Assembly (NCBI RefSeq): GCF_032062105.1 | Contig: NW_026929843.1 | Coordinates: 38,440 to 102,439, forward strand | Direction of reading: 5' to 3' | DNA: 64,000 nt | From: Saccostrea cucullata | Lineage: Eukaryota | Shown here: positions 17,194-47,416 of the stretch, piece by piece | Numbering within the stretch: the first letter of the stretch is position 1 | Layout: each line of letters begins with the position of its first letter | The notes under the pieces: generated by a model | The model's database searches: none | What the model saw: the letters and a program-made list of their open reading frames with translations, nothing else | Told to the model about the DNA's origin: nothing | Position numbers and translations under genes: made by a program

Positions 17194-17392
17194 AGTACTC
17201 ATGTTGTGCTCAACGATCCAGAGAAAGCTGACGTCAGCTACAAATGTAAAATGGCCGAGAAATTCCGAATCCCAGTGGTGAGCCTCGATTTTATATTTGA
17301 CTGTGTTGACCAAGGGAAGCAACTCAACACTGATGATTATCTCCTTGTGGGGAAAACAAAGGCTCAGGAATTCAGCAGCGGCAAAATAATGG
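17194..17392 (+). CDS. PARP4: PARP4-like exon 2 (BRCT C-terminal half)
   Basis: Acceptor cttacag, donor gtaagg. 'STHVVLNDPEKADVSYKCKMAEKFRIPVVSLDFIFDCVDQGKQL' matches human 'CTHIILDNADVLSQYQLNSIQKNHVHIANPDFIWKSI'. Confidence 0.75.
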
Positions 17393-17793
17393 GTAAGGAC
17401 AAATAAAAAATGAAAATAGAAACTCAACAGCTGTTTTTGACTTTCTGCAGTACAGGAAGGAAGGTTGGTTGGTCATTGTTTTTTTTTTACATCCTTATTA
17501 AATTCTGGGTTGTTAATTAGTTGTTAAAACTGCAGGTTTAGATCTGTATTTGGCTTTACAAGGAAGGAATTGGTAATGGCTAAAATAAATTTCCATGTCA
17601 GGTTCTTTTTTGTACAATTCTAAACATGAAAAAAGAGAACAGATAATTTTAGAAAGATCAGTTTTGATATTTTGATTGATGGTTGATTAAATTTTTATTG
17701 CAAATTAATAACAATAAAAACAACATTTTAATATTAAATAAACTCTTTGAATTCATCAAATGATAACACTATTATTTTTTTCTTTTTGAAAAG

Positions 17794-17942
17794 CTGGAAA
17801 ATCAGGACCTAAACCTGAGGGGAAAAAGAAGAAAATGGTGTCTAGTTTTAACCCCAAGTCTGTGAAAGTTTGGCAGGAGGGGGATAAAAACATGCCCCAG
17901 TATGACAATGGGAGTGATCTGGCCAAATTCGCCATGCTTCAG
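17794..17942 (+). CDS. PARP4: PARP4-like exon 3 (linker, lysine-rich)
   Basis: Acceptor ttgaaaag, donor gtcagt. Phase 1 in, 0 out. 'AGKSGPKPEGKKKKMVSSFNPKSVKVWQEGDKNMPQYDNGSDLAKFAMLQ'. Confidence 0.6.
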
Positions 17943-18183
17943 GTCAGTTATAAACTGAAGATGCTCTAGGAATTCAAAATTATCATAAGTGATTATCTTA
18001 TGTTACATTTACCAAGTTTTTAGGAATTACTCATCTGCATAATTTTCTGTAGTAGGGAAAATAGGTCTTGGTATATTTTTTCGATGATGTTGAATTGAAA
18101 TACCAGTATATTTATTTTTAGACAAATCAATCTAATTTATGAATAATTAAGGTTCCTAAGAGATATTTCTATGTATTTTACAG

Positions 18184-18324
18184 AAATATGACAAGAAGAC
18201 ACAAATAACCCAGTTCTGTGTGCTGGAGATTCATGTATCAAAAAGAGTTATTCCCCTTGACAACAAGGAACAGTCTCCTAGGTTTTGTATCTGTTCTCAC
18301 CAGGGCAGTGTGCAGGAAGTACAG
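18184..18324 (+). CDS. PARP4: PARP4-like exon 4
   Basis: Acceptor ttttacag, donor gtgtgt. Phase 0. 'KYDKKTQITQFCVLEIHVSKRVIPLDNKEQSPRFCICSHQGSVQEVQ'. Confidence 0.55.
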
Positions 18325-18722
18325 GTGTGTAGTACCAACATATGAAACAAATATAGGATTGTCAGTGGTTTATTGTTCGATATAATTTTTATCCAATGAG
18401 TTCTGTGTTTTCTTTTTATTCACAAGCCTTAAACATGTTAAGGTGCATAAAGATTCCTTTTATCACATGCTTTAAAACATAGGCACATAGCTATTAAAAG
18501 TTTTATGAATCTTTTTTATTTTTTCTAAATTTCATAAGAAACCCTTTTGGGACGTTCACATCTCGAAAAAGAAATGTCATGTGTAACTGAAATTTAATGT
18601 ATAAAAGGAGTAAACATGATAATTGAGCTTAATAAATGTACTTAAGCTTCTAACATTTTAATACATTTTGAATTTTGGAGACCGGGATACAATCACAGAT
18701 TATTTTTTGCTTAATTTTCCAG

Positions 18723-18887
18723 GACAAGCCAGGTAGTGGCACTAGAGAGTTCCGATTTGTACAGACGTCAGAGGAAGCCCTGAGTGTGTTTAGCGCCCTC
18801 TATAAACAGATGACAGAGTCCCCAAATAGCATGACTGTCTGTCGGAAACCCCCATGTCAGCATATCGGATCAAAGAAATTTCAAAAG
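18723..18887 (+). CDS. PARP4: PARP4-like exon 5
   Basis: Acceptor aattttccag, donor gtatat. Phase 0. 'DKPGSGTREFRFVQTSEEALSVFSALYKQMTESPNSMTVCRKPPCQHIGSKKFQK'. Confidence 0.55.
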
Positions 18888-19164
18888 GTATATCATTCTT
18901 CAGAATGATATAGAGATGGACTAGAGCCATTGATACTGTATGCAATGTATCTTTTAACTTTATATATCCTACTGGAAATCATATAATCATACCGTGTTTC
19001 AAAATTATGAAATACAGTTGACTTTATATGTAGCTGTGAATATATCAATCAAGTAATTTTTACTTTCAGAATATTTTTATTCAGAGTGCAATTATGGTAC
19101 AGAGTTTAAAAATATGATGTGATAAATTGAATCTTTGAATTAATATTTTTCTTATAACATTCAG

Positions 19165-19302
19165 ATGATGGTTGAGTATGGTATGGAGGATACAGAGTTA
19201 TCTACCCCTGTGAAGGAGCTGATGCATCACATCTGGCAGGAAGCCGGGGGCGAGATAGAGGAAATCCTTAGTAGTCCACTACAATCACTAAAACTAGACC
19301 AG
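19165..19302 (+). CDS. PARP4: PARP4-like exon 6 (PARP regulatory region)
   Basis: Acceptor aacattcag, donor gtcagt. Phase 0. 'MMVEYGMEDTELSTPVKELMHHIWQEAGGEIEEILSSPLQSLKLDQ'. The 3' end of this exon seeds the downstream minisatellite. Confidence 0.6.
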
Positions 19303-19870
19303 GTCAGTAGGTCAAGGTCATAACAGACCAGGTCAGTAGGTCAATACAGTCACTGAAACTAGACCAGGTCAGAAGTTCAAGGTCATAACAGACCAGGTCA
19401 GTAGGTCAATACAGTCACTGAAACTAGACCAGGTCAGTAGGTCACTACAGTCACTGAAACTAGACCAGGTCAGTAGGTCACTACAATCACTGAAACTAGA
19501 CCAGGTCAGTAGGTCACTACAATCACTGTCAGTAGGTCACTACAATCACTGAAACTAGACCAGGTCAGTAGGTCACTACAATCACTGAAACTAGACCAGG
19601 TCAGTAGGTCACTACAATCACTGAAACTAGACCAGGTCAGTAGGTCACTACAATCACTGAAACTAGACCAGGTCAGTAGGTCAAGGTCAATCAACTCACT
19701 GAAACTAGACCAGGTCAGTAGGTCACTACAGTCACTGAAACTAGACCAGGTCAGTAGGTCACTACAGTCACTGAAACTAGACCAGGTCAGTAGGTCACTA
19801 CAGTCACTGAAACTAGACCAGGTCAGTAGGCTACTTCAATCACTGAAACTGGACCAGGTCAGTAGGTCAA
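19285..19870. repeat. 36-bp minisatellite ('cactgaaactagaccaggtcagtaggtcactacaat'), derived from the exon 6/intron junction
   Basis: The array starts inside the exon 6 3' end ('ccactacaatcactaaaactagaccag|gtcagtagg'). Each unit repeats the 'accag|gtcagt' donor context. It continues at 20670-20840 beyond the MITE. Confidence 0.85.
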
Positions 19871-19877
19871 GGTCATT

Positions 19878-20669
19878 ACTAGGGGTGGATATCGCCAGAA
19901 AAACTATATTGCGATATATTGCAATATTTGATGGCATATTGCGATGAATATTGCAATATATTGCTTTGCTGTCCATTTCATGTAAAGTTTGAAGTGAACC
20001 GAAAAATAGTGTATCTATAAACTTAAAATACCATATCTGATCATTTCACGTCAGATAATGTTTGCTGTTCACTGTTTATTTAGTTCCCTGTCAAAGTGTC
20101 TTAGTTATTTGTGTAAGAAATCGACATATTTTTCGAGTAAAATTAAGACAGTCGACATGTTCTCCTTTTCTTAAAAAAATAACTTCGTAAAAATTCAGAA
20201 ACTGTTGTTTTATGTCATATCTCAACTTTTCTTTTCTTTTTTTTTTAAACGTGGTATGTGTCCTCAGACATAGGAATCAGAATATTTAAGCATCACAAAC
20301 CTACACTGGCTAAACATCGTTTATAACATTTTTTTCGTCCGCCATTTTGATCAAGAAAAGTACGAAACCAGAGTATAAGTTTTCTGGAAAAAATTAAGTG
20401 TTGTTGAATTGAATCTTCAACATAATCCTTGTGATGATTGTAATAATTAATCCTTTTAATTCCATGCTTACCTTTTACACACTGTTGCAATGTCTATTTA
20501 CTAACAAAAACAAACTTTACAACTGCAAATACACCATATTTAGCATTTGTGTAATACTTCCGGTTTGCATATCGTCAATACCGGTATTGAAAAAATATAT
20601 TGCAATATATTATCGTTGGGTTTAATATTGCAATATACCGATATATCGATAATATTGCACACCCCTAGT
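19878..20669. mobile_element. MITE/non-autonomous DNA transposon with TIRs '(t)actaggggtg ... cacccctagt', inserted into the minisatellite
   Basis: Terminal inverted repeats at both ends. The interior is full of 'atattgcaata' palindromic motifs. Flanking 'tcatta' on both sides is a candidate target-site duplication. The minisatellite resumes right after it. Confidence 0.7.
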
Positions 20670-20840
20670 CATTACAGACCAGGTCATTGGGTCACTACAG
20701 TCACGGATACAATACCAGGTCAGTATGTCAAGGTCATTAGAGACCAGATCAGTAGGTTAGTTATGTCACTGAAACTGAACAAGGTCAATGTAATTACAGA
20801 TCAGGTAAGTAGGTCACTACAGTCACTGAAACAGATCTTT
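20670..20840. repeat. continuation of the 36-bp minisatellite downstream of the MITE insertion
   Basis: Degenerate units 'gaccaggtcattgggtcactacagtcac...'. Confidence 0.7.
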
Positions 20841-21083
20841 ATGTGAGGTCACTATAAATATATCATTAGCTTCATATAGTTAGTGAAATTGTGACAATAG
20901 ATTCATTTGTTATTTAAAAGTCTGTAGTTGAGCAACAACTAGTCAAATTTCATATGTAAAAGCAGCAGATTATCATCATTAATTTAATCTGTCATCCATA
21001 TTTCTAACTTGACAATGCAAGATTAACTTTTCTAGAAAACTCCTCAAACCATTTAAATGCTAGATTAATCACTTCCATTTTAG

Positions 21084-21251
21084 GTTGAGAAGGCGACGGC
21101 CATTTTGTCTGAGATGAAGGAGAACCAATCAGATGAGAGTAAGCTACAGAGTCTGTTTACCGAGTTCTACTCCACGCTCCCCCACAATCCCCAGCACAAG
21201 ACCACGACCTTCACCTTGTCATGGCTGGCCAGGAAACTGGACCTTTGTCAG
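21084..21251 (+). CDS. PARP4: PARP4-like exon 7 (PARP regulatory/helical region)
   Basis: Acceptor ccattttag, donor gtacaa. Phase 0. 'VEKATAILSEMKENQSDESKLQSLFTEFYSTLPHNPQHKTTTFTLSWLARKLDLCQ'. Confidence 0.6.
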
Positions 21252-21597
21252 GTACAATGTGTTATTGAATTAGTTGCATGTCCTTGATATGGAATTTCTT
21301 TGTGCTAGGAGACTAGGATCTGTATTCTGACATGGAAATCAACAATGCTTTATTTACATGACTGTACTACATGTACTATGTAAGAAAAAGACAATCATTT
21401 ATGCATTACTTGAAGTGTCTTTGACTGATAAAAAAAAAATTGTTAAAAAAATTAATTTTCATAATGTTCAATGTACATGTCGATTTTCTTGAAGCCGACA
21501 CATGTTATGTAAGAACAGTACCTGAAAATGTCTATTAAAATAACAGGCTAATATTATATTGAGACAGTCTTGAGATGATGTGGTTTTTGTGTTGTAG

Positions 21598-21746
21598 CTG
21601 ATTAAGGACGTGGTGTCCGTGAGTGAAGCTACAGACTGGTCTACAAGGGGGAACACGGAGGCCCAGTACAAAGCCCTCAGATGTCAGATATCTCACGTTC
21701 CCGGGGGTCTACCAACACCAGTCAAAAACGTTCTCAATCTTAAGGA
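21598..21746 (+). CDS. PARP4: PARP4-like exon 8
   Basis: Acceptor gtgttgtag, donor gtaagt. Phase 0 in, 2 out. 'LIKDVVSVSEATDWSTRGNTEAQYKALRCQISHVPGGLPTPVKNVLNLK'. Its 3' part is the source of the 31-bp minisatellite immediately downstream. Confidence 0.6.
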
Positions 21747-21747
21747 G

Positions 21748-22178
21748 TAAGTACAAACCTGTATAGTAGTCAGATATCACAAGTACAAAACCCTCATATG
21801 TCAGATATCACAAGTACAAAATCCTCAGATGTCAGATATCACAAGTACAAAACCCTCAGATGTCAGATATCACAAGTACAAAACCCTCAGATGTCAGATA
21901 TCACAAGTACAAAACCCTCAGATGTCAGATATCACAAGTACAAAACCCTCAGATGTCAGATATCACAAGTACAAAACCCTCAGATGTCAGATATCACAAG
22001 TACAAAACCCTTAGATGTCAGATATCACAAGTACAAAACCCTCAGATGTCAGATATCACAATTACAAAACCCTCAGATGTCATATCACAAGTACAAAACC
22101 CTTAGATGTCAGATAACACACACATCCCTGGGGGTCTTCCAACACTGGTCAAAAACATCCTCAATCAAAGTAGTATAA
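21748..22178. repeat. 31-bp minisatellite ('cagatatcacaagtacaaaaccctcagatgt', about 12 units) derived from exon 8, ending with a duplicated pseudo-exon fragment (22100-22178)
   Basis: The unit resembles exon 8 'aaagccctcagatgtcagatatctcac'. After the array, 'cagataacacacacatccctgggggtcttccaacactggtcaaaaacatcctcaatcaaag' copies the exon 8 3' end 'cagatatctcacgttcccgggggtctaccaacaccagtcaaaaacgttctcaatcttaag'. Confidence 0.8.
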
Positions 22179-22485
22179 GTATGTTCAAACTTGTAATTAT
22201 AGTAGTCAGACAAGATAATCTCTTGAGTCTGTTAGTGTTAAAGACAGTCAAAGATTATCATATTAAAAATTAATATTAGAGTAAAGTGGTGGGAAGTGGT
22301 AAAATCTCATAATTGGTGATTAGTTTCTTGTAACATTATTGCTTATCTTACTGGGTAAGTGTGGATTCTGAAAGGCCTGAATGTTGAGTTAAAGCCAAAA
22401 TGTTATCCAACCTAGATGGCAGCTAATTTATTGTAAATGTCACAGCTTCATATTTTGTGTACCTATTGCTTACTGTTTGTTTCAG

Positions 22486-22620
22486 TGAAGATAAGTTAAA
22501 TGTACAGAATGTTTATGCCGTTCATCGTCCTGGTGAGAGTGAGGTGTTCCGGGCAGACTTAAATTCTAGACTTCTCTTTCATGCATCCAATGTGGAAAAC
22601 TTTGTAGGAATTCTCTCCAG
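22486..22620 (+). CDS. PARP4: PARP4-like exon 9 (start of PARP catalytic domain)
   Basis: Acceptor ttgtttcag, donor gtaatg. 'DEDKLNVQNVYAVHRPGESEVFRADLNSRLLFHASNVENFVGILS' shows the PARP pattern (cf. PARP1 'LLWHGSRTTNFAGILSQGL'). Confidence 0.8.
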
Positions 22621-22830
22621 GTAATGAATGCTAGACATTACCTTTGATGCCAGTTGAAGCATATTCATTTATGTAATGTTCATGTGTAACAGCATTGAAA
22701 ACTAGATATGGGATAAAGTGAGCTTGCCTGCTATTGATAAATTTATTCTTGACTAGATCATTTTTTGCTTTATTAACAATTTAAACTTACAAGCACCCAG
22801 TATTGACTCTCTTGATTGGATATTTATCAG

Positions 22831-22929
22831 AGGTCTCCTGATGCCAAAGGTCGTCGTCGATGACTACGGAGGGAAGAGAACAGACCCGGGAATGCTGGGA
22901 AATGGAATCTATTTCGCCAGTTCTGCTAG
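22831..22929 (+). CDS. PARP4: PARP4-like exon 10 (PARP catalytic core)
   Basis: Acceptor tatttatcag, donor gtttgt. 'RGLLMPKVVVDDYGGKRTDPGMLGNGIYFASSA' matches the PARP 'GKGIYFA' nicotinamide-pocket motif. Confidence 0.85.
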
Positions 22930-23343
22930 GTTTGTTTATAGTAATGACAATGTAAGATTTATTTAAAAACAGAAAATTTTACTTGAAGTGATGTATTTCA
23001 ATCAAATGCCAGTGTCAGGATGTATATAAAATATTTCGAACAATCTCATATTGCAAATTTATTATATTTAATGAATGATAAGTACTGTACCCACACTATT
23101 GCTTTGGACAACCACAAAATCAAGAAATAAGGGAGGATAAAGGGAATTCTAAAATATTCTTACATTCATTTGAAAGTTATTAAATCATTATTTTCTTCTC
23201 ATGTTTAAAGGATAGTTAGCTTAATTGCCATCCAGTCTTTTGAAAGATGAACTTTAATTGTCACAGTAGGAATATAGAACATAAATAATTAATGTCTTAA
23301 TTAAAAAGCAAATTCATGATTTATGTTTTCATTCTTTGTCCAG

Positions 23344-23527
23344 CACAAGCATAAAATACTCAAAGCCAAGTAAAACAAGGAATACAAGAATGATGTTGGT
23401 AAACCTGGTGGCTCTGGGGAATACCCTGGATGTCTATAAATATCAGCGGGACCTCACAGAGCCCCCTAGTGGCTACAACAGTGTTCATGGAGTGGCGGCG
23501 ACGGAGGACTTAGAATCAGATTTTACG
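23344..23527 (+). CDS. PARP4: PARP4-like exon 11 (PARP catalytic)
   Basis: Acceptor ctttgtccag, donor gtgtgt. 'STSIKYSKPSKTRNTRMMLVNLVALGNTLDVYKYQRDLTEPPSGYNSVHGVAATEDLESDFT'. Confidence 0.75.
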
Positions 23528-23984
23528 GTGTGTTAATGAAGTGATGAGGTTTCCTCCCCAGTTACATGTTATAGAAATGATAAGGATTTTCTTGTGACTG
23601 AAGTAATTTTAATATATTTTTGAAATAGAGTGATGGACATTTTTAAGGCAAATTGTCATATGTAAAACAAGTACTAGTGTTATATAATGGTGTAACCCCC
23701 CCCCCCCAAAAAAAAAAAAAGAGTGTCCCCACAAACACCCCCTCTCTTCAGCCTTCATACCCCCCACCTATTCTTTCTAGAATCATTTATTTTCAAAATA
23801 AAATTTGAAAAAAAATAAATTGCCACCCATGCAGTAACAGTTTGATGTTTGAATTGTACAAGTCAGTATTAAGATGACTTCAGCATAAATGTGCATACCA
23901 GTGTTACACTAGAGTGAATATCTTTGCCTGCTTAACTTTGATACCTTGTTCCTCTTGTGTACATTTTCTCCATTTTTGTGACAG

Positions 23985-24126
23985 GATGATGAGTATGTGG
24001 TGTACAGTACAGACCAGCAGATGTTGAGTTATCTGGTGGAGTTTACCGTGGGAGGGGAGATACCAGGGGAGTTATCAATGGAGGAGGAGATAGAAAGGGA
24101 GACAACTGACTCAGATACAGATGTCG
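23985..24126 (+). CDS. PARP4: PARP4-like exon 12 (end of PARP catalytic domain plus acidic linker)
   Basis: Acceptor tttgtgacag, donor gttagt. 'DDEYVVYSTDQQMLSYLVEFTVGGEI...' matches the PARP C-terminal 'NEYIVYD..Q..L.YLL' signature. Confidence 0.8.
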
Positions 24127-24348
24127 GTTAGTTCAGTGTTTGATCTTTTGTTATACAATATGTCAGGTACCCTATAATTTTATTACATAATTTTGCTAAA
24201 TATACATGTACAATTCAATATAGTTTGATAAAATTTTAAAATTGTTTCTAAAGGATTAGTAAAAAGTGTTTATTGTGCCCTCTGACATTCATAAAAATCT
24301 CTTCATGATGAAAGTGAATACATATACAATAATTTGTTCATTTTTCAG

Positions 24349-24479
24349 ATATCAGTGATGTGAAAAATGTGACTGACCCTCTGACCAAGGTCAAGGTTGG
24401 ACTGGTTTCCAATGATGACACGCCTGTGTCCCTCATAGAAGCCCACATCAGAGCCAAACTGATTGACCTGGCAGGAGAG
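24349..24479 (+). CDS. PARP4: PARP4-like exon 13 (start of VIT region)
   Basis: Acceptor catttttcag, donor gtaatg. Phase 1 in, 0 out. 'DISDVKNVTDPLTKVKVGLVSNDDTPVSLIEAHIRAKLIDLAGE'. Confidence 0.65.
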
Positions 24480-24822
24480 GTAATGTAGGCCAAAGTGAAT
24501 TAGTCAAACGTGAACGTCCTTTCTTATTATTAAGTTCCTATTATGTTTTATCAGATAAGAGATTACTTTGCAGTTCTTTATTTTACATTTTATAGATACT
24601 CAATATACAAAGATACTCAGATTCAAATATGACTCCATTTATAAACATGAATTTAGTATTGTATATAACCTTGTTTGTGTCAGTTTACGCTTTATAATCT
24701 GCGAAGCTTTTTAGATATTACATGTAACTGATCAGAGGCTAGAATACGTCAAACAAAGTGAAATTATTAGATTAATATTTGCAAGTTTGTTTAATACCTA
24801 TTCTTCTGTATGAAAACAACAG

Positions 24823-25047
24823 GTAGTGGTTCTACAAGAGTACCATAACAGTAGTGACAAAGCTCTGGAAGCAAAGTACGTCTTCCCTCTGGATGACATG
24901 GCCGCCGTCTGCGGATTCGAGGCTTTCATTAACGGTAAACACATCATAGGGGAGGTGAAGGAGAAAGAGACCGCCCACAAAGAATACAAACAGGCCATCA
25001 AAGAGGGGCACGGGGCGTATCTAATGGACCAAGATGAGGAAACGCCA
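24823..25047 (+). CDS. PARP4: PARP4-like exon 14 (VIT domain)
   Basis: Acceptor gaaaacaacag, donor gtaagt. 'VVVLQEYHNSSDKALEAKYVFPLDDMAAVCGFEAFINGKHIIGEVKEKETAHKEYKQAIKEGHGAYLMDQDEETP' is a typical VIT pattern (Y.FPL...A.V..F...I.G..I.G.VKEK..A...Y..A...G..A.L). Confidence 0.85.
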
Positions 25048-25429
25048 GTAAGTCAGAAATCATGGGGGAAAATCATGAATTCAAATTCCTTGGGCTTTTT
25101 GTCACTGTTGTGGGTGAAAAGCAAACAATTACTAGGTACATGCATTGTCAGTGAGTTTTATTTGTTCTCTATATTCCAATGAACAGAGAACCTTTAATTA
25201 ACAAGGATTAATAATAAGATTTTAATTTCATAAGATTTGTGTCTTTATATGTCTCATAATGATTTTATATTGATCATGAGCATTTGTTATCATGCATTTT
25301 TTTGAATTATGAATATACCAGGTATATTCCGTTAAGTTTTTCGTTGAAGTAATATGATAACCTGTACATAGTTTAATTGTTGGAGTAATATGGGAGCTTA
25401 ATGTATCCGCTTCTTTGGTCTATTTATAG

Positions 25430-25600
25430 GAGGTATTCACAGTGAGTGTGGGAAACCTCCCCCCTAAGGCTACCGTCATCATTAAGATAACCTACGTCAC
25501 AGAGCTGCAGGTCGACGGGGAACTCATCAACTTCCGACTCCCAGGCAGCGTGGCGCCATGGAAACAGAAGTATGTCGACGCCCCAGAATTCAAAGACAAG
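25430..25600 (+). CDS. PARP4: PARP4-like exon 15 (VIT domain)
   Basis: Acceptor ctatttatag, donor gtttgt. 'EVFTVSVGNLPPKATVIIKITYVTELQVDGELINFRLPGSVAPWKQKYVDAPEFKDK'. Confidence 0.8.
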
Positions 25601-25910
25601 GTTTGTGCATTTTAAAGGAAAAGGAATGAATACCTGCAGTTTTTTGTAGATTAATTTATTAAATTCATTGAAAAACATTGAATCAGAATTGTGCTTTTGT
25701 ATGAGAACAGATGATAATACTAAGGAAGTCAAACTATAGACTGAAATGTTATTGAGTATTTTTTCAGAAAGTTTGGTTTTTATTTTGTCATGTTGATATA
25801 ACTTGTTCCTTTTTCATGTGCGTGGTAAATCATACTTCATTGTTTAATTGATACACAGTGCTAAATGATATGAGGAATGATTATATTTGATGTCTGATTT
25901 TCCTCCTCAG

Positions 25911-26021
25911 GACTGGGATACAGTACAGGTTGAGGACACAGACTGCAGTGTACAGGTTTATGTTGACATGCCTTTTGACATCAGAAGTCTGGAATGTCCT
26001 ACTCACAAAATTCTTGTAAAG
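25911..26021 (+). CDS. PARP4: PARP4-like exon 16
   Basis: Acceptor ttcctcctcag, donor gtaaaa. 'DWDTVQVEDTDCSVQVYVDMPFDIRSLECPTHKILVK'. Confidence 0.65.
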
Positions 26022-26330
26022 GTAAAACCCTCACACTACACTTGTCTGGTGAATTTTAATGAAAAGTACAATGTACTATTGCATTAGACCTATGGCATTT
26101 TATTATTTTCACATCTCCAGAAAAATAATAGTGAAAGTGATAAAACATTTCTTTTTTAATGGTTAATATTATGAAACAGTGTTATATCAAAATGATAATA
26201 TGGTGATGGCACCTTAAAAATTATACCTTCTGTTGTTAGTGCAATGAGTACAACCTCAGGAGGATAAATAAAAAGTACAATAAATAAATACACCAGAGGG
26301 TGAGTACATTAAGGGTGTTGTATTCTGTAG

Positions 26331-26465
26331 AGAACGGCCACTAAAGCCACGGTCGAGATGAAGGAGGACCAGACAATAGAAGATGGCTTCCAGCTTCTGA
26401 TTGGTCTAGCTGAGATCCACGTACCCAGGATGTGGGTGGAATCCGACGAAGGCCAAGATTCACAG
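26331..26465 (+). CDS. PARP4: PARP4-like exon 17
   Basis: Acceptor gtattctgtag, donor gtattc. 'RTATKATVEMKEDQTIEDGFQLLIGLAEIHVPRMWVESDEGQDSQ'. Confidence 0.65.
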
Positions 26466-26910
26466 GTATTCTATTAAAGTTGTGTATCATTTTACCTTGG
26501 GCGTATTATTTCATTTGAAAGATAATAAGCTTGATAAATGGTTAAATGCATTAAGTACAACTGCAAGTAAAAGGGATTTAATGAAACTTACCCTTTGAAA
26601 TTGATCATATTTATTTGATTAAGAGGATAATGATGATTTATTGTAATGTTTTTTAAAAAGCTTAAATTAGATAGAAGACATATGCGTTGCATTAGTGTCA
26701 ACTTCCTTTTTCAGCAAAGCATATATTAACTTGAAATACATGTATGGTACAATTCTGCAGAAAGTCTAAGATAAATGCATTTTGGTTTATTTGAATTGAA
26801 TTTTTAATGACACCGAGGCTAGTCTCACAAAATTTTTACTGAGTTTTAATATTCTGTAAGTTAATCACCATTAGATTAATCATTGATATGTTTACTTTTT
26901 TAATTATCAG

Positions 26911-27097
26911 GCCTGTATGCTGACCTTTTACCCTGAGTTTGAGGCGGAGGAGGAGTCAGAGGTCGAGGTCATTCTGATGATTGACAGCTCCAACTCCATG
27001 AAAGGCTCCGCCCTCCAACAAGCCAAGAAAACGGCTCTCCTGACCCTACACCTCATGGAGTCCAGCTGGAGATTTAATGTGGTGTCTTTTGGAACAG
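26911..27097 (+). CDS. PARP4: PARP4-like exon 18 (start of VWA domain)
   Basis: Acceptor taattatcag, donor gtaaca. 'ACMLTFYPEFEAEEESEVEVILMIDSSNSMKGSALQQAKKTALLTLHLMESSWRFNVVSFGT' carries the VWA MIDAS-type 'DSSNSM' motif. Confidence 0.85.
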
Positions 27098-27254
27098 GTA
27101 ACATTTTGGGAAATGATTTTAGACAGAATAGAATTAATATAGTTATAAAAAAAAAACAGTAATAGCAATCCTACATACATTGTATAATGAGTATATGTAC
27201 TATGCTTACAGCAAAGTGATCTTTATTCCTTGAGATACATTGTATGCACACAAT

Positions 27255-27466
27255 TACTGTAGAAGTACTTTTTTCCGCGTGGTATTAATCTACGCAATGT
27301 ACTCGCTTACAATTTTTCCGCGGAAATTTGTCCAAGCGTACTTAATATAAATGTAAGGCACATATAGAGACAATCTAGAAAATCCGCGTAATTTTATACC
27401 TGCGGATTAAACAGAAATTGAGATTCCGCGGAATAATGACCACGTGGAAAAAGTACGTCTACAGTA
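27255..27466. mobile_element. MITE with about 28-bp TIRs ('tactgtagaagtactttttccgcgtggt ... accacgtggaaaaagtacgtctacagta')
   Basis: Near-perfect terminal inverted repeats. A related copy lies at 52368-52579 and a partial copy at 35040-35131. Confidence 0.8.
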
Positions 27467-27706
27467 TATTTTTGGGAGCAAGAAATTAATTAAGCTTTTA
27501 ACAAAATTAAAATTGTTTTTCTCAGGTAATTTGCATATAAATTTTTAGTACATGTAGCTAGCTGTTCATACTTTGCCTGTTGAAAGAATTAATTGGTATC
27601 TCCCTGATCTGTACATCTTATATTAACATAAAATATGCAGAAGTATTTTAATTCATTTTAAATTTAGAATTTAAGTCATCTTTCTGTTGAATTTTGTATG
27701 TTGCAG

Positions 27707-27780
27707 CTTTCCAAGAGCTTTTCCCGTCCAGCCAGCTGGCCAGTAAATTTAACATACAATCAGCAAAACAGTTCATACAG
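27707..27780 (+). CDS. PARP4: PARP4-like exon 19 (VWA), followed by a putative GC donor
   Basis: Acceptor atgttgcag. '(A)FQELFPSSQLASKFNIQSAKQFIQ'. Only 'gcaaga' follows at 27781. The next VWA exon is in the +1 frame, consistent with a 121-nt GC-AG intron. Confidence 0.55.
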
Positions 27781-27901
27781 GCAAGAAATAAAAATTTTAA
27801 AACACTTACCACTTTCAAATTGATCAGTGAAATTGAACAATACAGTTATGAAGTACTGCTTGTATTTGAATTTTTAATTTTTCTTTTGATTTCTCTCTCA
27901 G

Positions 27902-28089
27902 AGGCTGCAAGCAGAGGAAGGTAACACAGAACTTTGTCGACCTTTGAACTCTTACTACCTCCTAAAACCAGAGAGTTACACTAGGAATATCTTCCTGATC
28001 TCTGATGGCCATATTAACAATGAGGAGACAACTCTGTCCAAAATCTCCCAAAATTACCAGCACACCAGAGTCTTTACACTAGGGGTCAG
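27902..28089 (+). CDS. PARP4: PARP4-like exon 20 (VWA)
   Basis: Acceptor ttctctctcag, donor gtaatg. 'RLQAEEGNTELCRPLNSYYLLKPESYTRNIFLISDGHINNEETTLSKISQNYQHTRVFTLGV' has the VWA 'GgT.l..aL' and 'ifL.tDG' pattern. Confidence 0.8.
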
Positions 28090-28309
28090 GTAATGTCAGA
28101 AAATATTTCTATAGAATTTGTTTGAAAAAAAATATTAAACAGTGTACATGTACATATAGTAACATTGATTAGCAGGAGGTGGGGGGGGGGGAGTTCATTA
28201 TTTTAACATTTTTTGCATTAATTTTAATAGAATTTAATTTAATTCAGTTACTGTAACAGTTTTATATAAGCATATTAATAAGTTTATTTCTTTCATATCA
28301 TATTTACAG

Positions 28310-30029: not shown

Positions 30030-30131
30030 GTGAGGAAAATGAACCTGAAGCAGTATATTATAGAGCTGAGTAAGAAGTATACCATCGTCACGTCACTCAC
30101 CAGCTTTGTCGCCATCGAGAAACGAGAAAAG
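30030..30131 (+). CDS. PARP4: PARP4-like exon 25
   Basis: Acceptor gaatttcag, donor gtaatc. 'VRKMNLKQYIIELSKKYTIVTSLTSFVAIEKREK' matches the 'LS..y.ivT..TSfVAve' motif shared by VIT-VWA proteins. Confidence 0.7.
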
Positions 30132-30520
30132 GTAATCACCTCTGAAATCTAGTTATTAGTAACTTTTTTATCTAAATTTTCAATTTTCCATCTAAATTTT
30201 ATGGATCTCACGTCAAGAAAAACAACAGATTATGATAATCAAAATATTTTAAGATTATTGTACAACATTTCTTTGTTATGATTTTATAATCTGAAAGTCC
30301 TTTTGAGATTAACTTAAGTCTATACAATGTAATTAAAACTGAGAACATCAACATCTAAATGTAGGCACTTCCTTCTTAAAATATATATACTCCTTTGACT
30401 TTTAAATCTTTAAGTATCTAATATTTTAGCCATATACACGTACATGCATTATAGACACCATTTTGAAATTCACACTTCATGTTAATTTTTTAATGGACCC
30501 GTGGATTAATTAATTTGTAG

Positions 30521-30616
30521 GATGAGGTGATTCCAGAGGATGCTCCAGACGTCTGGGACCTCCTGGAAAACGAGGACGTGGATCAGCTGAAATATTTATC
30601 CTGGGAAGGAGAGGAG
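30521..30616 (+). CDS. PARP4: PARP4-like exon 26 (last exon with recognisable PARP4/ITIH-type sequence)
   Basis: Acceptor taatttgtag, donor gtacat. Phase 0. 'DEVIPEDAPDVWDLLENEDVDQLKYLSWEGEE'. Confidence 0.6.
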
Positions 30617-35151: not shown

Positions 35152-35205
35152 AGGATGAGAGTTCAAGTGATGAAGAAGAGATGGAAGAAGAATATTCGTC
35201 CGCCG
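35152..35205 (+). CDS. candidate exon of acidic C-terminal extension: 'DESSSDEEEMEEEYSSAE'
   Basis: Acceptor tttctatttag, donor gtaaaa. Phase 0 to 0, compatible with the phase-0 end of exon 26. Confidence 0.45.
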
Positions 35206-35654
35206 AGGTAAAATTCTTTTATTTTCATTAAAAACTAAAACTAAGTTAAACAATCAAGCATTTCTAACAATTTAGTCATAGTCAAGGAAAAGGTAAAGAT
35301 GAAATTATTTGAAGGGGGTTAAATATTCAGAAAAGTTTATTTTTGGTGGGCGAGGCATTTATTCCATGCCTGTATATTATATTTACCCCACCTCTGATAA
35401 TTTTTCCGTGAAATCCTGGCTTACGATTGGTTGAAGTATGTCACGTGAAGGCGGTGGATTTCTTATACCCGGTCAGTTGTAAATCCATACCCGGTCAGTT
35501 GTAATCTATACCCGGTCGATGTATTACGTCACAAACACAAACGTGACGTCATAGTAGGCATAGTATAAGCGTGATGAAGGATTTAGCAGAGAAAACCATT
35601 TATAAACTACAGATAAAATGTAAATGTTACATCGGTGGGGTAAATTCGTTACAC

Positions 35655-37001: not shown

Positions 37002-37100
37002 GAAGGATCGGGAACAGGAGAGGAAGAGGAAGAAGATTTCGAGGAAGAAGGAGTAAAAATGAAATTTTATCGTCGCAGTGCAGAGGAGGAGGTTTGTCCA
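37002..37100 (+). CDS. candidate exon of acidic extension: 'EGSGTGEEEEEDFEEEGVKMKFYRRSAEEEVCP'
   Basis: Acceptor cctctttacag, donor gtgagt. Phase 0 to 0. Confidence 0.45.
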
Positions 37101-37113
37101 GTGAGTTCTTATT

Positions 37114-37341
37114 ACTGTATAAGCAGAATTTTTAGCAAGGAGTTAATTTTGGCACTATTAGTGAGGGTGCCAAGAATGCTAATATTGAATATTGCTAAAT
37201 ATTAATTGCATTTTATTTGTAATAGCCTCTTTTGTGAGCATTTTAAAATCGCTAAAATTACTTATTGCTAAAAATAAAACAACCATTTTTAAGGACAAAT
37301 CGCTAAATTTGTGTCTCGCTAAAATTTCCACTGATACAGTA
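37114..37341. mobile_element. about 230-bp MITE ('actgtataagcagaatttttagcaagg ... ccactgatacagta') starting 13 nt after the donor of exon 37002-37100
   Basis: Same family at 44183-44408, 44728-44954 and, in reverse, at 52190-52367. Short inverted termini 'actgtat'. Confidence 0.7.
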
Positions 37342-38497: not shown

Positions 38498-38560
38498 GAT
38501 GATCTCGAGGTTTATGAAGAAGCATATGAAGCCTTTGAATGTGCAGAACCTGCTTCCGAA
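38498..38560 (+). CDS. candidate exon of acidic extension: 'DDLEVYEEAYEAFECAEPASE'
   Basis: Acceptor aattttcag, donor gtatgt. Phase 0 to 0. Confidence 0.45.
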
Positions 38561-43679: not shown

Positions 43680-43721
43680 GAAGAAGCTATGGACGTTGAT
43701 GAATTGTGTTTGGAGTCTGAG
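43680..43721 (+). CDS. candidate exon: 'EEAMDVDELCLESE'
   Basis: Acceptor ctcttcccag, donor gtatgt. Phase 0 to 0. Confidence 0.4.
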
Positions 43722-44182
43722 GTATGTTTTAATTACGATATATTTATTTAGTCCCATGATTACTACATGTAAGTGAGATTGAGAGTGTATAGAAACAAAA
43801 TTTGTTCAATCAATTGAAACCAAAGGAATACTTTGCAGTATATATAGCTAAGTACTGTAGTTAATACCTGACAGATATTTGTTGCTTAAAAATGACTGAA
43901 TTGCTACACAGTGAACATGCTGTAGGCCATATTTAAGGTGGACAAAGATTTGCTGAAAATATTATCATGCTTGTTTACGTAAGGGATAAATAAGGATGAA
44001 AAATAAATTTTTAAAAATAAATTTCTAAAGGTAAAACTGAAAATCAGATGGAATATTTGTTAACAATTGAAAAGAATAATTTCATTGAGTTGAATGATCA
44101 GCCTTTTTTTCAAAAGCTGATCATGATTGACAAGTTGACCTGTATAAAATCATATTTTACCTTTTTAATCAATAGACATAAA

Positions 44183-44408
44183 CCGTACAAGTGGAATTTT
44201 TAGTGATGATTTTATTTTGGCATTATTAGTGAGGGTGCTGTTGATCACTAAAATTAAATATCGCTAAAAATTGATTGCATTTTATATGCATTAGCTTCTT
44301 TCGTGAGTAATTTAAAATCACCAACATTACATCTCGCTAAAAATTGAATGCCACCATTTGAGAACAAATCGCTAATTTGCGTCTCACTAAAAATTCCACT
44401 TATACCAT
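44183..44408. mobile_element. MITE copy (37114 family), about 200 nt upstream of exon 44606
   Basis: 'ccgtacaagtggaatttttagtgatg...cactaaaaattccacttatacc'. Confidence 0.65.
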
Positions 44409-44605: not shown

Positions 44606-44704
44606 ATTGACGATATCCACTCTAAAATGAAAGAAAATGTAGAAAAAGTACTAGAGAGGGGTGAAAAACTAGACAATTTAACTGAGAAATCACAAACACT
44701 TATG
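44606..44704 (+). CDS. candidate exon with R-SNARE (synaptobrevin)-like heptad sequence: 'IDDIHSKMKENVEKVLERGEKLDNLTEKSQTLM'
   Basis: Acceptor aaatttcag, donor gttagt. Phase 0 to 0. Aligns with VAMP2 '[33 protein letters not shown]' (about 12/23 identical in the core). Confidence 0.5.
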
Positions 44705-44727
44705 GTTAGTTGATTGCCTGTTTTATA

Positions 44728-44954
44728 CCGTATAAGTAGAAATTTTAGCAAGGATTTTATTTTGGCATTATTAGCGAGGGTGCTGAGATCGCTAAAATTG
44801 AATGTCGCTAAAAATTAATTGCGTTTTATTTGTAATAGCTTCTTCAGTATGCAATTTAAAAACGCTAAAATAACATCTCGCTAAAAATAGATTACCAATT
44901 TTATAGGACAAATCGCTAAATTTGTGTCTCGCTAAAATTTCCACTTATACAGTA
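44728..44954. mobile_element. MITE copy (37114 family) starting 23 nt after the donor of exon 44606-44704
   Basis: 'ccgtataagtagaaattttagcaagg ... ccacttatacagta'. Confidence 0.7.
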
Positions 44955-45136
44955 TTTGCATGTTTGTTTTCCATTTAACTGGCCCAGGGTCTGTGCTTGT
45001 AAACATGAATTTGCCACTGTGGGATAACACTACTTTCATCAGAAAGCCCGATATTGTGGACAATGCAGAAAATATTCATTAGATGCAAAATAGTTGTCTT
45101 AATATTGGACTGATGAAGAATAAATTATTTAATAAG

Positions 45137-45304
45137 GATGCCTCCCCTGTTATCATGGACATGGGTTCACTGTTTATGAAGGCGGGGTTTGCTGGGGACG
45201 ACGCCCCCGAGCAGAATTTGAGACAACCGTTGGACGTCCTCGACATCAGGGCGTGATGGTCGGCATGGGACAGAAAGACTTGTACGTCGGAAAAGAGGTC
45301 ACAG
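45137..45304 (+). pseudogene. actin N-terminal-like exon (actin exon-1 equivalent), frameshifted in a C5 run (45204-45208); possibly a real exon of the host gene
   Basis: Acceptor taataag, donor gttagg. Upstream frame '[24 protein letters not shown]'. Downstream frame '(R)[31 protein letters not shown]' matches actin '[38 protein letters not shown]'. Canonical actin has 6 C where 5 are present. With 6 C the exon would be phase 0 in and phase 1 out, matching both neighbouring exons. Confidence 0.5.
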
Positions 45305-45670
45305 GTTAGGATTCTTGTAGCTTAGATATTAAATTTTTCTTATAATTGTATAGTAATCCGAATTCAATAATAATTATCATTTAAGACTATTTTTTTTATC
45401 ATTTTGAAAAGCTCTATTAACTTATAAGTAGTATATGTATATACTTTTATTGAATTCTATTGCTCACTCAGTCTTATAGTTTTCAGGTTTTTTAATATTT
45501 TTTCCCTTGAAAATTTGCAAAATTAAAAAAACTTACTAATATAAGGAATTCAAAAATTACCCATGGCAAATTAAAGAACAAATGATATTTTATTTATGAA
45601 TTCATCACACTTTCCACAACATAAATAAGAAAAGGTTTCCTGTCTTGAGGATTGATTACTTTTTTTATAG

Positions 45671-45724
45671 GAGCAAAACCTGTGTTAGGAAAAGTATTGG
45701 AAAAGCTTTCTTCATCTTTGGAAG
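45671..45724 (+). CDS. candidate exon: '(G)AKPVLGKVLEKLSSSLE'
   Basis: Excellent acceptor ttttttatag and donor gtaaga. Phase 1 in, 1 out. Links the (corrected) actin-like exon to exon 47417. Confidence 0.45.
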
Positions 45725-46920: not shown

Positions 46921-47416
46921 GCGTGGGGTATGTGAGCCTGCTCACTTTTTCTTTCATTCTCTTAAATTGTAGATAACAAAACATTTGTAAAGCAATATTG
47001 ACAAATAGTATAGTTTTTGTCTGCTTGGCTTATAAAACATTTTAGAAAAAATGAAAGATTTAGACTTAAGCTTATAATGTTTCATGAATCATGATCCTGG
47101 GGCCAGACCTCTAGTGACTTTCTTAACATAAGATGTAGTATTAGTCTATGCAGAAATCTTTTCCGAGCAGGTCTGAGATTAAGTATACCAGTGCATGGGG
47201 AATAGGGGCTCCTAGGCAGCTATCAGTTTTTTTGGATTGTAAGATGAACATAGTTTCATTGATCATAAAAAAATGCTTTCATTGATAACAAAGGATAACT
47301 AGATCTCACAACTTGAAGATAATTTTTCCCTTTTTTGTCACTTGTTCAGTTAAAGAGAAATTCATGTATTAAATGATTATGAAGTATTGCATGATATTCT
47401 GATTACTTTAATCTAG

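What the first reader, a model, noticed from the sequence alone, without database searches (positions are those of the whole stretch)
44606..44704. Exon encoding a synaptobrevin-like R-SNARE heptad segment with a substituted zero-layer residue
'IDDIHSKMKENVEKVLERGEKLDNLTEKSQTLM' aligns with the VAMP2 SNARE motif '[33 protein letters not shown]'. The hydrophobic heptad register is conserved, but the zero-layer arginine position is occupied by E/K. There is no following transmembrane exon. This would be a SNARE-like coiled-coil module embedded in a soluble acidic protein. It could also be a relic of exon capture from a VAMP-family gene. The exon is flanked by two copies of the same MITE (44183-44408 upstream, 44728-44954 starting 23 nt into the downstream intron). 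That arrangement is suggestive of transposon-mediated exon shuffling.
Basis: partly seen in the sequence, partly recalled or inferred. Interest (0 to 1): 0.65.

Follow-up and report, generated by a model that had tools for sequence, protein, structure and literature searches.

The report
SNARE-like exon inside oyster vault-PARP gene
The 99-base segment is a real coding exon for part of a membrane-fusion (R-SNARE) helix with its key arginine intact, and it lies in the disordered linker of an oyster vault-PARP (PARP4) locus, where other invertebrate genomes carry the same motif next to an actin fragment.

Summary
Window 44606-44704 (+) is an open 33-codon exon with canonical splice sites. It passes Pfam Synaptobrevin (38.5 bits, cutoff 26.4). 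Its best solved relative is VAMP4.

The exon covers layers -5 to +4.

There is no TM exon in the next 19 kb, and none is expected. The exon matches RefSeq XP_062594584.1 (Saccostrea cucullata) at 33/33 residues. That model is a TM-less acidic/Pro-rich protein in which the SNARE exon is followed by an actin N-terminal fragment, a ribosomal P-stalk-tail-like motif, poly-Pro and a WH2 motif.

The locus lies directly downstream of BRCT-PARP-VIT-vWA exons on the same strand, joined by a chain of phase-0 acidic exons. In two other invertebrate assemblies (four loci), an actin fragment and a TM-less R-SNARE motif follow PARP-VIT-vWA exons on the same strand. In the three WLWD01 loci the MVP-interacting domain lies further downstream, so the module is inside PARP4's linker.

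The flanking MITEs are real. They belong to an old dispersed family (four copies in the window, 82-88% identical) and give no specific evidence for capture. Function is inferred only.

The parts
44606..44704 (+). R-SNARE exon: 99 nt, phase 0-0, layers -5 to +4, zero-layer Arg intact, VAMP4-like
   Evidence: 33/33 identical to XP_062594584.1 residues 12-44
45137..45304 (+). Actin N-terminal fragment exon ([24 protein letters not shown] / [33 protein letters not shown]). In the window a C5 run (45204-45208) shifts the frame relative to the RefSeq protein and creates an in-frame TGA.
   Evidence: (Pfam Actin 35.1 bits in P0128)
43680..43721 (+). Acidic exon EEAMDVDELCLESE (phase 0-0). It contains the Met at which the RefSeq model starts.
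38498..38560 (+). Candidate acidic exon DDLEVYEEAYEAFECAEPASE (phase 0-0). It could also read through to a stop two codons later.
   Evidence: no homology support
37002..37091 (+). Candidate acidic exon EGSGTGEEEEEDFEEEGVKMKFYRRSAEEE (phase 0-0)
35154..35207 (+). Candidate acidic exon DESSSDEEEMEEEYSSAE (phase 0-0)
30521..30616 (+). PARP4 post-vWA exon DEVIPEDAPDVWDLLENEDVDQLKYLSWEGEE (phase 0-0). By eye it resembles L003 6812-6928 (same phase, shared VD.L.Y..W pattern); BLAST did not detect the match.
   Evidence: tblastn of the L003 exon against the window found nothing here
30031..30132 (+). PARP4 post-vWA exon ...SLTSFVAIEKREK (ends in phase 0); conserved in all PARP4 loci fetched
17182..28090 (+). 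PARP4-type exons: BRCT, PARP catalytic, VIT, vWA
   Evidence: (PARP 44.7 bits, VIT 119.4 bits, VWA_3 33.4 bits; BRCT_2 26.9 bits, just below its 27.3 cutoff)
45670..45723 (+). Exon (G)AKPVLGKVLEKLSSSLE of XP_062594584.1
47417..47476 (+). Exon ESDEEDVDMGFSLFDDDDES: ribosomal P-stalk C-terminal-tail-like motif
   Evidence: (Ribosomal_60s profile 73-88/88, 18.4 bits, sub-threshold)
47599..47633 (+). Exon (F)ELPKKQAPPKE
49386..49566 (+). Pro-rich/acidic exon FQKRGPTVRPP...PPPPRGVMDDKFSESDDEDYE
62006..62143 (+). Pro-rich/acidic exon EDKPEPPPEQDELEMDDLFEELPEEPVPPPSIPARGRPPPPSTQAH. It is the last exon of the model inside the window; the WH2 motif lies beyond 64000.
44182..44405 (+). MITE copy upstream of the SNARE exon
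44726..44956 (+). MITE copy in the downstream intron (27-28 nt TIRs, 89% match)
37113..37341 (+). Third MITE copy, starting 21 nt after the 37091 donor
52164..52361 (-). Fourth MITE copy, inverted

Best explanation
The segment is a genuine, canonically spliced, phase-0/0 coding exon. It encodes layers -5 to +4 of a VAMP4-like R-SNARE helix with the zero-layer arginine intact.

It is not part of a vesicle SNARE gene. It is one of a string of short motif-bearing exons in the long, acidic/Pro-rich, disordered region that follows the VIT-vWA part of an oyster vault-PARP (PARP4) locus. The other exons in the string are an actin N-terminal/D-loop fragment, a P-stalk-tail-like motif, poly-Pro and WH2. 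RefSeq annotates this region in Saccostrea cucullata as a separate 641-aa protein, which is probably a split model.

SHOWN:
- exon integrity
- Pfam-level SNARE identity
- the layer register
- identity to the RefSeq protein
- same-strand, phase-compatible position behind the PARP4 exons
- a homologous TM-less R-SNARE next to the same actin fragment downstream of PARP-VIT-vWA exons in two other invertebrate assemblies, with the MVP-interacting domain further downstream in the WLWD01 loci

INFERRED:
- Lacking any membrane anchor, the helix cannot drive fusion.
- It most likely acts as a binding module for Q-SNARE (syntaxin/SNAP-type) helices, in the manner of the soluble R-SNARE motifs of tomosyn and amisyn. 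That would tether or recruit PARP4/vaults to membranes, or the motif could serve as bait for factors that recognise VAMPs.
For: - Exon and splice sites.
- Pfam Synaptobrevin 38.5 bits against a 26.4 cutoff.
- VAMP4 is the best PDB match (E 6e-6).
- Layers I I M N V R L L S L match VAMP4 at -3..+4.
- Independent R-SNARE profile, 43.8 bits, E 3e-12.
- XP_062594584.1 (P0128) contains the exon at 33/33 identity, followed by the actin fragment, with no TM.
- Upstream same-strand exons hit BRCT (26.9 bits, marginally below cutoff), PARP (44.7 bits), VIT (119.4 bits) and VWA.
- The chain 30031/30521/35154/37002/38498/43680/44606 is entirely phase 0, read from sequence.
- Seven acidic splice-bounded candidates (six distinct exons) lie on the + strand at 35-51 kb. 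There are none on the - strand or elsewhere.
- L003/L015/L020 have PARPcat-VIT-vWA-post-vWA-actin fragment-R-SNARE-polyPro-WH2-P-stalk-like-MVP-ID on one strand. The actin and SNARE exons there join in frame through canonical sites. Pfam gives Synaptobrevin 49.8 bits and Actin 44.1 bits.
- L047 (a further assembly) has the same order, with a precomputed Synaptobrevin hit on the ORF after the actin fragment.
- L043 shows an actin fragment between the post-vWA exon and the MVP-ID within 4.6 kb.
- P0128 against the L003 module: actin 62% (E 1e-17), SNARE 50% (E 6e-8), WH2 45% (E 0.004).
- Human PARP4 has a >300-aa disordered linker at the equivalent place (PMC10450202, PMC4038475).
Against: - No transcript evidence was available. 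The RefSeq model is computational, it starts at 43.6 kb, and it is annotated as a gene separate from PARP4.
- No MVP-ID was found in the window, so continuity with PARP4 in the oyster rests on phase compatibility and on analogy with other genomes.
- The oyster exon has only 10 of 16 layers, and no +5..+8 segment follows.
- The next exon is frame-shifted in this window (C5 vs C6).
- SNARE and actin are in the opposite order compared with L003/L047.
- L043 has no SNARE motif, so the module is not universal.
- The taxa of the comparison loci are unknown.
- No selection test had power.
- Q-SNARE binding is untested.
Confidence: 0.7

Rival explanations
1. Separate gene, as annotated in RefSeq. In oysters the SNARE/actin/Pro-rich/WH2 region has become (or always was) an independent gene that starts at about 43.6 kb, immediately downstream of PARP4. 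The upstream acidic exons would then be PARP4's own C-terminus.
For: XP_062594584.1 starts at the Met inside exon 43680-43721. Exon 38498-38560 can read through to a stop two codons on. No MVP-ID is found in the window.
Against: In L003/L015/L020 the module lies between the vWA region and the MVP-ID on one strand, and in L047 it follows the vWA/post-vWA exons in the same order. The L003 exon that carries the actin start opens at a splice acceptor and is not a first exon. The whole oyster chain is phase-0 compatible. Computational models commonly split long genes in low-complexity regions.
Confidence: 0.25
2. Decaying relic or annotation artefact. The oyster exon is a degenerating remnant of the linker's SNARE motif (or of a captured VAMP exon) that gene predictors string together but that has no function.
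For: Only layers -5..+4 remain. The adjacent actin exon is frame-shifted in this window. The SNARE exon sits in a different position from L003/L047. Exon 49386-49566 contains a possible vestige ('EQVLERR') at the position where L003 has its SNARE. No close relative of the oyster protein was found among 5,674 candidates.
Against: The exon is open, has good splice sites, and scores as well as full R-SNAREs over the covered columns. All ten layer residues are canonical, and it is 33/33 identical between two non-identical genomes. The C5 run may simply be a homopolymer assembly error.
Confidence: 0.15
3. One reading: a recent MITE-mediated capture of a VAMP exon whose zero-layer arginine has been replaced.
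For: Two same-orientation MITE copies bracket the exon. In the oyster the SNARE piece is a separate mini-exon, in a different order from other genomes.
Against: The zero-layer Arg is intact. MITE copies are 82-88% identical, there are four or more in the window, and another sits ~21 nt behind an unrelated exon. A SNARE motif is present in the same linker in distant genomes.
Confidence: 0.05
4. An ordinary VAMP4-type vesicle SNARE gene whose remaining SNARE and TM exons lie beyond the window.
For: The best match is VAMP4, which has an acidic N-terminus. Introns here are long.
Against: The RefSeq protein continues from the exon into an actin fragment and Pro-rich sequence with no TM. All downstream exons to 62.1 kb are accounted for by that protein.
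Confidence: 0.02

Closest known systems
VAMP4 (R-SNARE, brevin family; PDB 2NPS chain A)
   Same: It is the best solved-structure match (E 6e-6). Residues are identical at layers -3 to +4, including the zero-layer Arg and the +3 Ser. There is acidic sequence upstream.
   Different: Only 10 of 16 layers are present, and there is no juxtamembrane segment or TM helix. The exon is followed by an actin fragment and sits in a PARP4-linked locus.
Tomosyn (STXBP5) and amisyn (STXBP6): soluble proteins with a C-terminal R-SNARE-like motif
   Same: A TM-less R-SNARE helix inside a larger soluble protein. From established knowledge, such motifs form non-fusogenic complexes with syntaxin/SNAP-25. This is the model for the inferred mechanism.
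   Different: There is no sequence relationship beyond the SNARE motif. Tomosyn did not appear among the PDB hits. The host protein here is a PARP4-type linker, and the motif is internal and, in oysters, truncated.
PARP4 / vault PARP (BRCT-WGR-HD-ART, ITIH-like VIT-vWA, disordered linker, MVP-ID; PMC10450202)
   Same: The window has BRCT, PARP catalytic, VIT and vWA exons in that order on the same strand. Related loci add the MVP-ID. The SNARE exon lies where human PARP4 has its >300-aa disordered, rapidly evolving linker (PMC4038475).
   Different: The papers read here describe the human linker as disordered and rapidly evolving and mention no SNARE, actin, EF-hand or P-stalk-like modules in it. 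The invertebrate linkers carry those recognisable fragments.
WASP-family / WH2-containing actin regulators
   Same: Poly-Pro tracts followed by a WH2-like motif, and in L003 an acidic-Trp stretch, resemble the Pro-V-(C)-A order.
   Different: The WH2 hits are below the Pfam threshold (14.9 and 16.3 bits against 23.1). There are no WH1, GBD or SHD domains. Membership is not claimed.

Membership tests
R-SNARE (Pfam Synaptobrevin PF00957) | Sequence matches the family profile above the curated threshold | tested here: met
   38.5 bits against 26.4, profile positions 12-43/89; 35.1 bits within XP_062594584.1
R-SNARE (Pfam Synaptobrevin PF00957) | Arginine at the central zero layer | tested here: met
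   The R of KVLER aligns with VAMP2 R56 and the VAMP4 zero-layer R
R-SNARE (Pfam Synaptobrevin PF00957) | Complete 16-layer heptad motif (-7 to +8) | tested here: not met
   The exon covers layers -5 to +4 only. No continuation is found in 44705-64000 or in the RefSeq protein. L003-type homologues do reach profile 2-56/89.
R-SNARE (Pfam Synaptobrevin PF00957) | C-terminal membrane anchor (TM helix or lipidation motif) | tested here: not met
   No TM exon downstream. Maximum hydropathy of XP_062594584.1 is 0.95, and it has no CCxxM end.
R-SNARE (Pfam Synaptobrevin PF00957) | Forms a four-helix bundle with Q-SNAREs | not testable with these tools
   Needs binding or structure experiments
PARP4 / vault PARP (host locus) | BRCT + PARP catalytic domain | tested here: met
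   PARP 44.7 bits, above cutoff. BRCT_2 26.9 bits, marginally below its 27.3 cutoff.
PARP4 / vault PARP (host locus) | ITIH-like VIT + vWA region after the catalytic domain | tested here: met
   VIT 119.4 bits; VWA_3 33.4 bits; same strand and order
PARP4 / vault PARP (host locus) | C-terminal MVP-interacting domain | tested here: inconclusive
   Not found in the window, and the locus runs off the end. It is present downstream of the SNARE module in L003/L015/L020 (E 1e-7 to 1e-13). In L047 it was seen only at the end of the preceding tandem copy. A precomputed PF26156 hit exists in L043/L047. My own Pfam scan of the assembled segments gave no hit.
PARP4 / vault PARP (host locus) | SNARE exon is spliced into the same mRNA as the PARP4 exons | not testable with these tools
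   Only phase compatibility and synteny or internal position in other genomes are available. RefSeq models it separately.
MITE (flanking repeats) | Short non-coding element with terminal inverted repeats, in multiple dispersed copies | tested here: met
   About 230 bp; TIRs of 27-28 nt at 89%; four near-full copies plus two fragments in 64 kb, 82-88% identical
MITE (flanking repeats) | Evidence that the two copies moved the exon (shared outer target-site duplication, or an empty site in relatives) | tested here: inconclusive
   Only a possible TA duplication, which is too short to interpret. No orthologous empty site was available.

The most novel reading that the evidence does not exclude
The linker between the vWA region and the MVP-interacting domain of invertebrate vault PARPs is a modular array of fragments copied from abundant host proteins. 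Those proteins are classic targets or cofactors of pathogen toxins and effectors: the actin N-terminus/D-loop, calmodulin-like EF-hands, a VAMP4-like SNARE motif, and the ribosomal P-stalk tail, together with WH2 and poly-Pro. On this reading the SNARE exon is an 'integrated decoy or bait' that lets PARP4/vaults capture or ADP-ribosylate factors that attack SNAREs. That would give a mechanistic form to the proposal that vertebrate PARP4's disordered, positively selected linker is a host-pathogen interface (PMC4038475).
Probability: 0.12. Interest if true: 0.9.

Novelty: new variant of a known kind. Interest (0 to 1): 0.6.

Why it matters
Vaults and their PARP have no settled function. In vertebrates the PARP4 linker is known only as a disordered, fast-evolving region of unknown partners.

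Recognisable SNARE, actin, calmodulin-like and P-stalk-like fragments in the equivalent invertebrate region would give concrete, testable candidate partners: Q-SNAREs and membranes, actin machinery, translation factors, or toxins that target these. This fits recent observations that vaults contact ER membranes and enclose ribosomes (PMC13100048).

It also shows that a RefSeq protein named 'histone-lysine N-methyltransferase 2B-like' is misnamed and probably a fragment of a PARP4 locus.

For SNARE biology, it would add another TM-less R-SNARE context beside tomosyn and amisyn.

Tried and rejected
1. Human YKT6, VAMP2, VAMP7, SEC22B and VAMP4 probes (recalled sequences) found only the one exon in the window.
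2. Hydropathy scans and a C-terminal-half SNARE profile found no TM or +5..+8 exon downstream. A weak 'FKTTSR' hit at 63945 has no acceptor site.
3. The first protein search, with a 54-aa exon concatenation, found no candidates. The word index is clearly incomplete, so this negative is weak.
4. The exhaustive HMMER search with the 33-aa exon returned only seven hits, all duplicated-motif proteins or a spurious repeat protein. The query is too short for library-wide significance.
5. The metagenome scan returned generic R-SNAREs at 37-71% partial identity and no close orthologue. It did, however, yield the three key WLWD01 loci.
6. The human MINT probe found nothing in the window.
7. The locus DNA for XP_062594584.1 is not on record, so no synonymous/non-synonymous comparison with the window was possible.
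8. dN/dS among the three WLWD01 paralogues had no power, with 0-3 differences in the SNARE segment.
9. The identity matrix cannot separate common origin from independent capture: 17/33 to the L003 linker SNARE, 16/33 to VAMP4, 16/33 to a fungal Ykt6.
10. My initial phase model, in which 49392 was a 0->1 exon and 51170-51208 was an exon, was superseded by the RefSeq mapping.
11. Bivalve-type loci L038, L042, L045, L046 and L048 did not reach the linker within the 10 kb flank.
12. Literature searches found no description of SNARE or actin modules in PARP4.

Full report
**1. The observation**

Window 44606-44704 (+) translates without stops to IDDIHSKMKENVEKVLERGEKLDNLTEKSQTLM. It is preceded by tttcag| and followed by |gttagt, and in-frame stops lie 6 codons upstream and 2 codons downstream. 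So the open frame is exon-sized, and homology ends at the splice sites.

The peptide alone passes Pfam's curated Synaptobrevin threshold: 38.5 bits against 26.4, E 1.1e-9, profile positions 12-43 of 89. A profile I built only from eight bona fide R-SNAREs scores it at 43.8 bits. That is E 3e-12 over 4,612 open segments from the window and eleven other loci, and nothing else in the window exceeds 7 bits. At local base composition a 33-codon frame stays open by chance about 6.5% of the time. The match is therefore not a chance open frame.

**2. The zero layer**

In VAMP2 the zero-layer arginine is R56, the R of KVLER. R66, in DDRADAL, is a different residue (the layer assignment itself is established SNARE knowledge). 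In the gapless alignment found by tblastn and phmmer, exon residue 1 pairs with VAMP2 V39.

The layer residues are then I, I, M, N, V, R, L, L, S, L for layers -5 to +4. All are canonical. They are identical to human VAMP4 from -3 to +4, including VAMP4's +3 serine. VAMP4 is the best solved-structure match (2NPS_A, E 6e-6, against 1e-3 or worse for all others).

The exon lacks layers -7, -6 and +5 to +8.

**3. No membrane anchor, and why**

Hydropathy scans at two stringencies and a profile of R-SNARE C-terminal halves found no credible continuation in 44705-64000.

The explanation came from the last protein search. A composite of the open segments around the exon hit a single protein out of 5,674 candidates. 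This is XP_062594584.1 from the oyster Saccostrea cucullata, 641 aa, auto-named 'histone-lysine N-methyltransferase 2B-like', E 1.6e-69.

Mapped back onto the window, it reproduces the SNARE exon at 33/33 residues. It then continues through these exons:
- 45137-45304
- 45670-45723
- 47417-47476
- 47599-47633
- 49386-49566
- ~49707-49778
- 51334-51369
- ~54.9-55.2 kb
- 62006-62143

After that it runs off the window.

Pfam finds Synaptobrevin (residues 11-47, 35.1 bits), Actin (residues 46-100, profile 4-53 of 410, 35.1 bits) and a sub-threshold WH2 motif (residues 586-607). The protein has no hydrophobic segment (maximum 19-residue hydropathy 0.95), and its first 210 residues have pI 4.7.

The window is not the identical genome. 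The first exon and the 54.9 kb exon differ. In addition, the actin-like exon has a C5 run where the protein implies C6, which puts a TGA in frame. This is either a real null allele or a homopolymer assembly error.

**4. The genomic context is PARP4**

Upstream on the same strand, open segments from 17.2 to 30.6 kb hit several Pfam families:
- BRCT_2: 26.9 bits, just below its 27.3 cutoff
- PARP catalytic: 44.7 bits
- VIT: 119.4 bits
- vWA (VWA_3): 33.4 bits

This is the architecture described for vault PARP (PMC10450202).

The last conserved exons are 30031-30132 and 30521-30616, and both end in phase 0. Four short acidic exons follow, with good splice sites: 35154-35207, 37002-37091, 38498-38560 and 43680-43721. 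All are phase 0-0, as is the SNARE exon.

As a control I ran the same splice-bounded scan over the whole window on both strands. It found seven acidic candidates (six distinct exons), all on the + strand between 35 and 51 kb, and none anywhere else. One of them, 51170-51208, is not in the RefSeq model.

The SNARE exon can therefore be read in frame with PARP4, although RefSeq starts a separate model at the Met in exon 43680.

**5. Other genomes**

The metagenome scan returned mostly fungal Ykt6-type SNAREs. It also returned three loci of one unidentified animal-like genome: L003 and L020 on WLWD01000565.1 and L015 on WLWD01000407.1, at 38% GC. These carry an R-SNARE motif in a long ORF that continues into acidic and poly-Pro sequence with no TM.

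On the same strand and within about 19 kb, these loci have the following, in order:
- PARP catalytic, VIT, vWA and the conserved post-vWA exon
- an acidic stretch
- an actin N-terminal fragment split into three exons
- the R-SNARE motif
- poly-Pro
- a WH2-like motif
- an acidic-Trp stretch
- 'SEFDDDMGFGLF'
- both halves of the MVP-interacting domain (E 1e-7 against a human probe; E 6e-13 against an ORF with a precomputed PF26156 hit)

I read the junctions directly. The actin exons and the SNARE exon join in frame through canonical sites.

Pfam on the assembled module gives Synaptobrevin 49.8 bits (profile 2-56 of 89, the whole SNARE motif minus the TM part), Actin 44.1 bits and WH2 16.3 bits. 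VAMP4 is again the best PDB match.

The oyster protein and this module share three separate elements: actin 62% (E 1e-17), SNARE 50% (E 6e-8, with an identical EKVLERGEKLDNL), and WH2 45% (E 0.004).

A further assembly (L047, ERZ25068665) shows vWA, the post-vWA exon, the actin fragment, and then a 466-aa ORF with a precomputed Synaptobrevin hit. An MVP-ID was seen in L047 only at the end of the preceding tandem PARP4 copy.

In L043 and L044 the same linker has calmodulin-like EF-hands and the actin fragment. L043 has no SNARE motif between the actin fragment and the MVP-ID, all within 4.6 kb.

So the region between vWA and MVP-ID in these PARP4 genes is a mosaic of short, recognisable fragments that varies between genomes. 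The R-SNARE motif is a recurrent member of that mosaic.

**6. The MITEs**

The repeats are real: about 230 bp, with 27-28 nt terminal inverted repeats. The family has four near-full copies and two fragments in this window, 82-88% identical to one another. One copy begins 21 nt after the donor of a different exon (37091).

Two copies within about 550 bp is unremarkable for an old, dispersed family in a MITE-rich genome. Nothing ties them to the origin of the exon.

Some exon-level rearrangement in the oyster lineage is still likely. SNARE and actin are in the opposite order to L003/L047. The oyster SNARE piece is a short separate exon. Exon 49386-49566 begins like the L003 SNARE-bearing exon (FQKRGPTVR against RKRGSVVRS) and has 'EQVLERR' where L003 has 'EKVLERGEKL'. 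This remains unexplained.

**7. Mechanism**

Shown: identity, register, context and recurrence.

Inferred: a TM-less R-SNARE helix cannot drive fusion. By analogy with tomosyn and amisyn (established knowledge), it most plausibly binds Q-SNARE helices. In this setting it would tether PARP4/vaults to membranes, or present a VAMP-like surface.

Human PARP4's equivalent linker is disordered, positively selected, and proposed as a host-pathogen interface (PMC4038475; PMC10450202). Vaults have recently been seen on ER membranes and around ribosomes (PMC13100048).

The fragments found here come from proteins that, from general knowledge, are classic toxin targets or cofactors: actin, calmodulin-like EF-hands, a VAMP-like SNARE and the P-stalk tail. 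That motivates the speculative 'integrated bait' reading, to which I give about 12%.

**8. Limits**
- There is no expression data.
- The comparison taxa are unidentified.
- No selection test had power.
- The identity matrix cannot distinguish one ancient acquisition from repeated capture.
- The human probes were recalled from memory and were used only as probes.

**9. Verdict**

The exon is real and is a canonical partial R-SNARE motif. The 'substituted zero layer' is an alignment error. The 'MITE-mediated capture' idea is unsupported.

The unexpected part is the host: a vault-PARP linker that in several invertebrate genomes carries SNARE, actin and other protein fragments. I found no description of this in the literature searched.

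Noticed in passing
window 45137-45304 (+): Actin N-terminal/D-loop fragment exon directly after the SNARE exon. It is 100% identical in protein to XP_062594584.1, except that a C5 run (45204-45208) replaces the implied C6. That shifts the frame and gives an in-frame TGA. This is either a real null allele or a homopolymer assembly error.
   Followed up: partly
window 47417-47476 (+); L003 15038-15073; L015 15354-15389; L020 15087-15125: An exon encoding ESDEEDVDMGFSLFDDDDES, which closely resembles the conserved C-terminal tail of ribosomal stalk P proteins (Ribosomal_60s profile 73-88/88, 18.4 bits, sub-threshold). The same motif (SEFDDDMGFGLF) occurs in the PARP4 linker of the WLWD01 loci.
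   Followed up: partly
L044 15160-15734; L043 2042-2158 and 13744-13860: Calmodulin-like EF-hand units lie inside the PARP4 vWA-to-MVP-ID linker, upstream of the actin fragment. L044 has four EF-hands (EF-hand_7, 114 bits). L043, which has the EF-hands, has no SNARE motif; in L044 the region after the actin fragment was only partly covered.
   Followed up: partly
L043 (11.7 kb period); L003/L020 (28.9 kb apart on WLWD01000565.1); L047 2424-4364: PARP4 genes are tandemly duplicated in several of the compact invertebrate assemblies. The MVP-ID of one copy is followed directly by the BRCT of the next.
   Followed up: no
window ~49.4-50.6 kb and ~54.9-56.2 kb: A tandem segmental duplication of about 5.5 kb. 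It duplicates the Pro-rich/acidic exon pair (FQKRG...PPPP...SES..YE and KPD(V/F)LS...). The second copy is diverged and has indels relative to the RefSeq protein.
   Followed up: partly
window 31514-33580 (+): LINE-type retrotransposon ORFs (reverse-transcriptase-like, 374 and 307 aa) inserted in the intron between PARP4 exon 30521-30616 and the acidic exons.
   Followed up: no
window 19340-19944 and 21744-22175 (+): Long open, highly repetitive minisatellite arrays (e.g. SLQSLKLDQVSR repeats; DITSTKPSDVRYHKYKTLRCQISQVQNPQMS repeats) within introns of the PARP4 catalytic region.
   Followed up: no
XP_062594584.1 (P0128), whole protein: The RefSeq name 'histone-lysine N-methyltransferase 2B-like' has no domain support. 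The only Pfam hits are Synaptobrevin, Actin and a weak WH2. The name probably comes from Pro-rich low-complexity similarity, and the model is probably a fragment of the PARP4 locus.
   Followed up: partly
L003 14741-15085 (+): An acidic tryptophan stretch (SYSDDDDWDSD) lies downstream of the poly-Pro and WH2 motifs. The order is reminiscent of WASP-family Pro-V-A regions.
   Followed up: no
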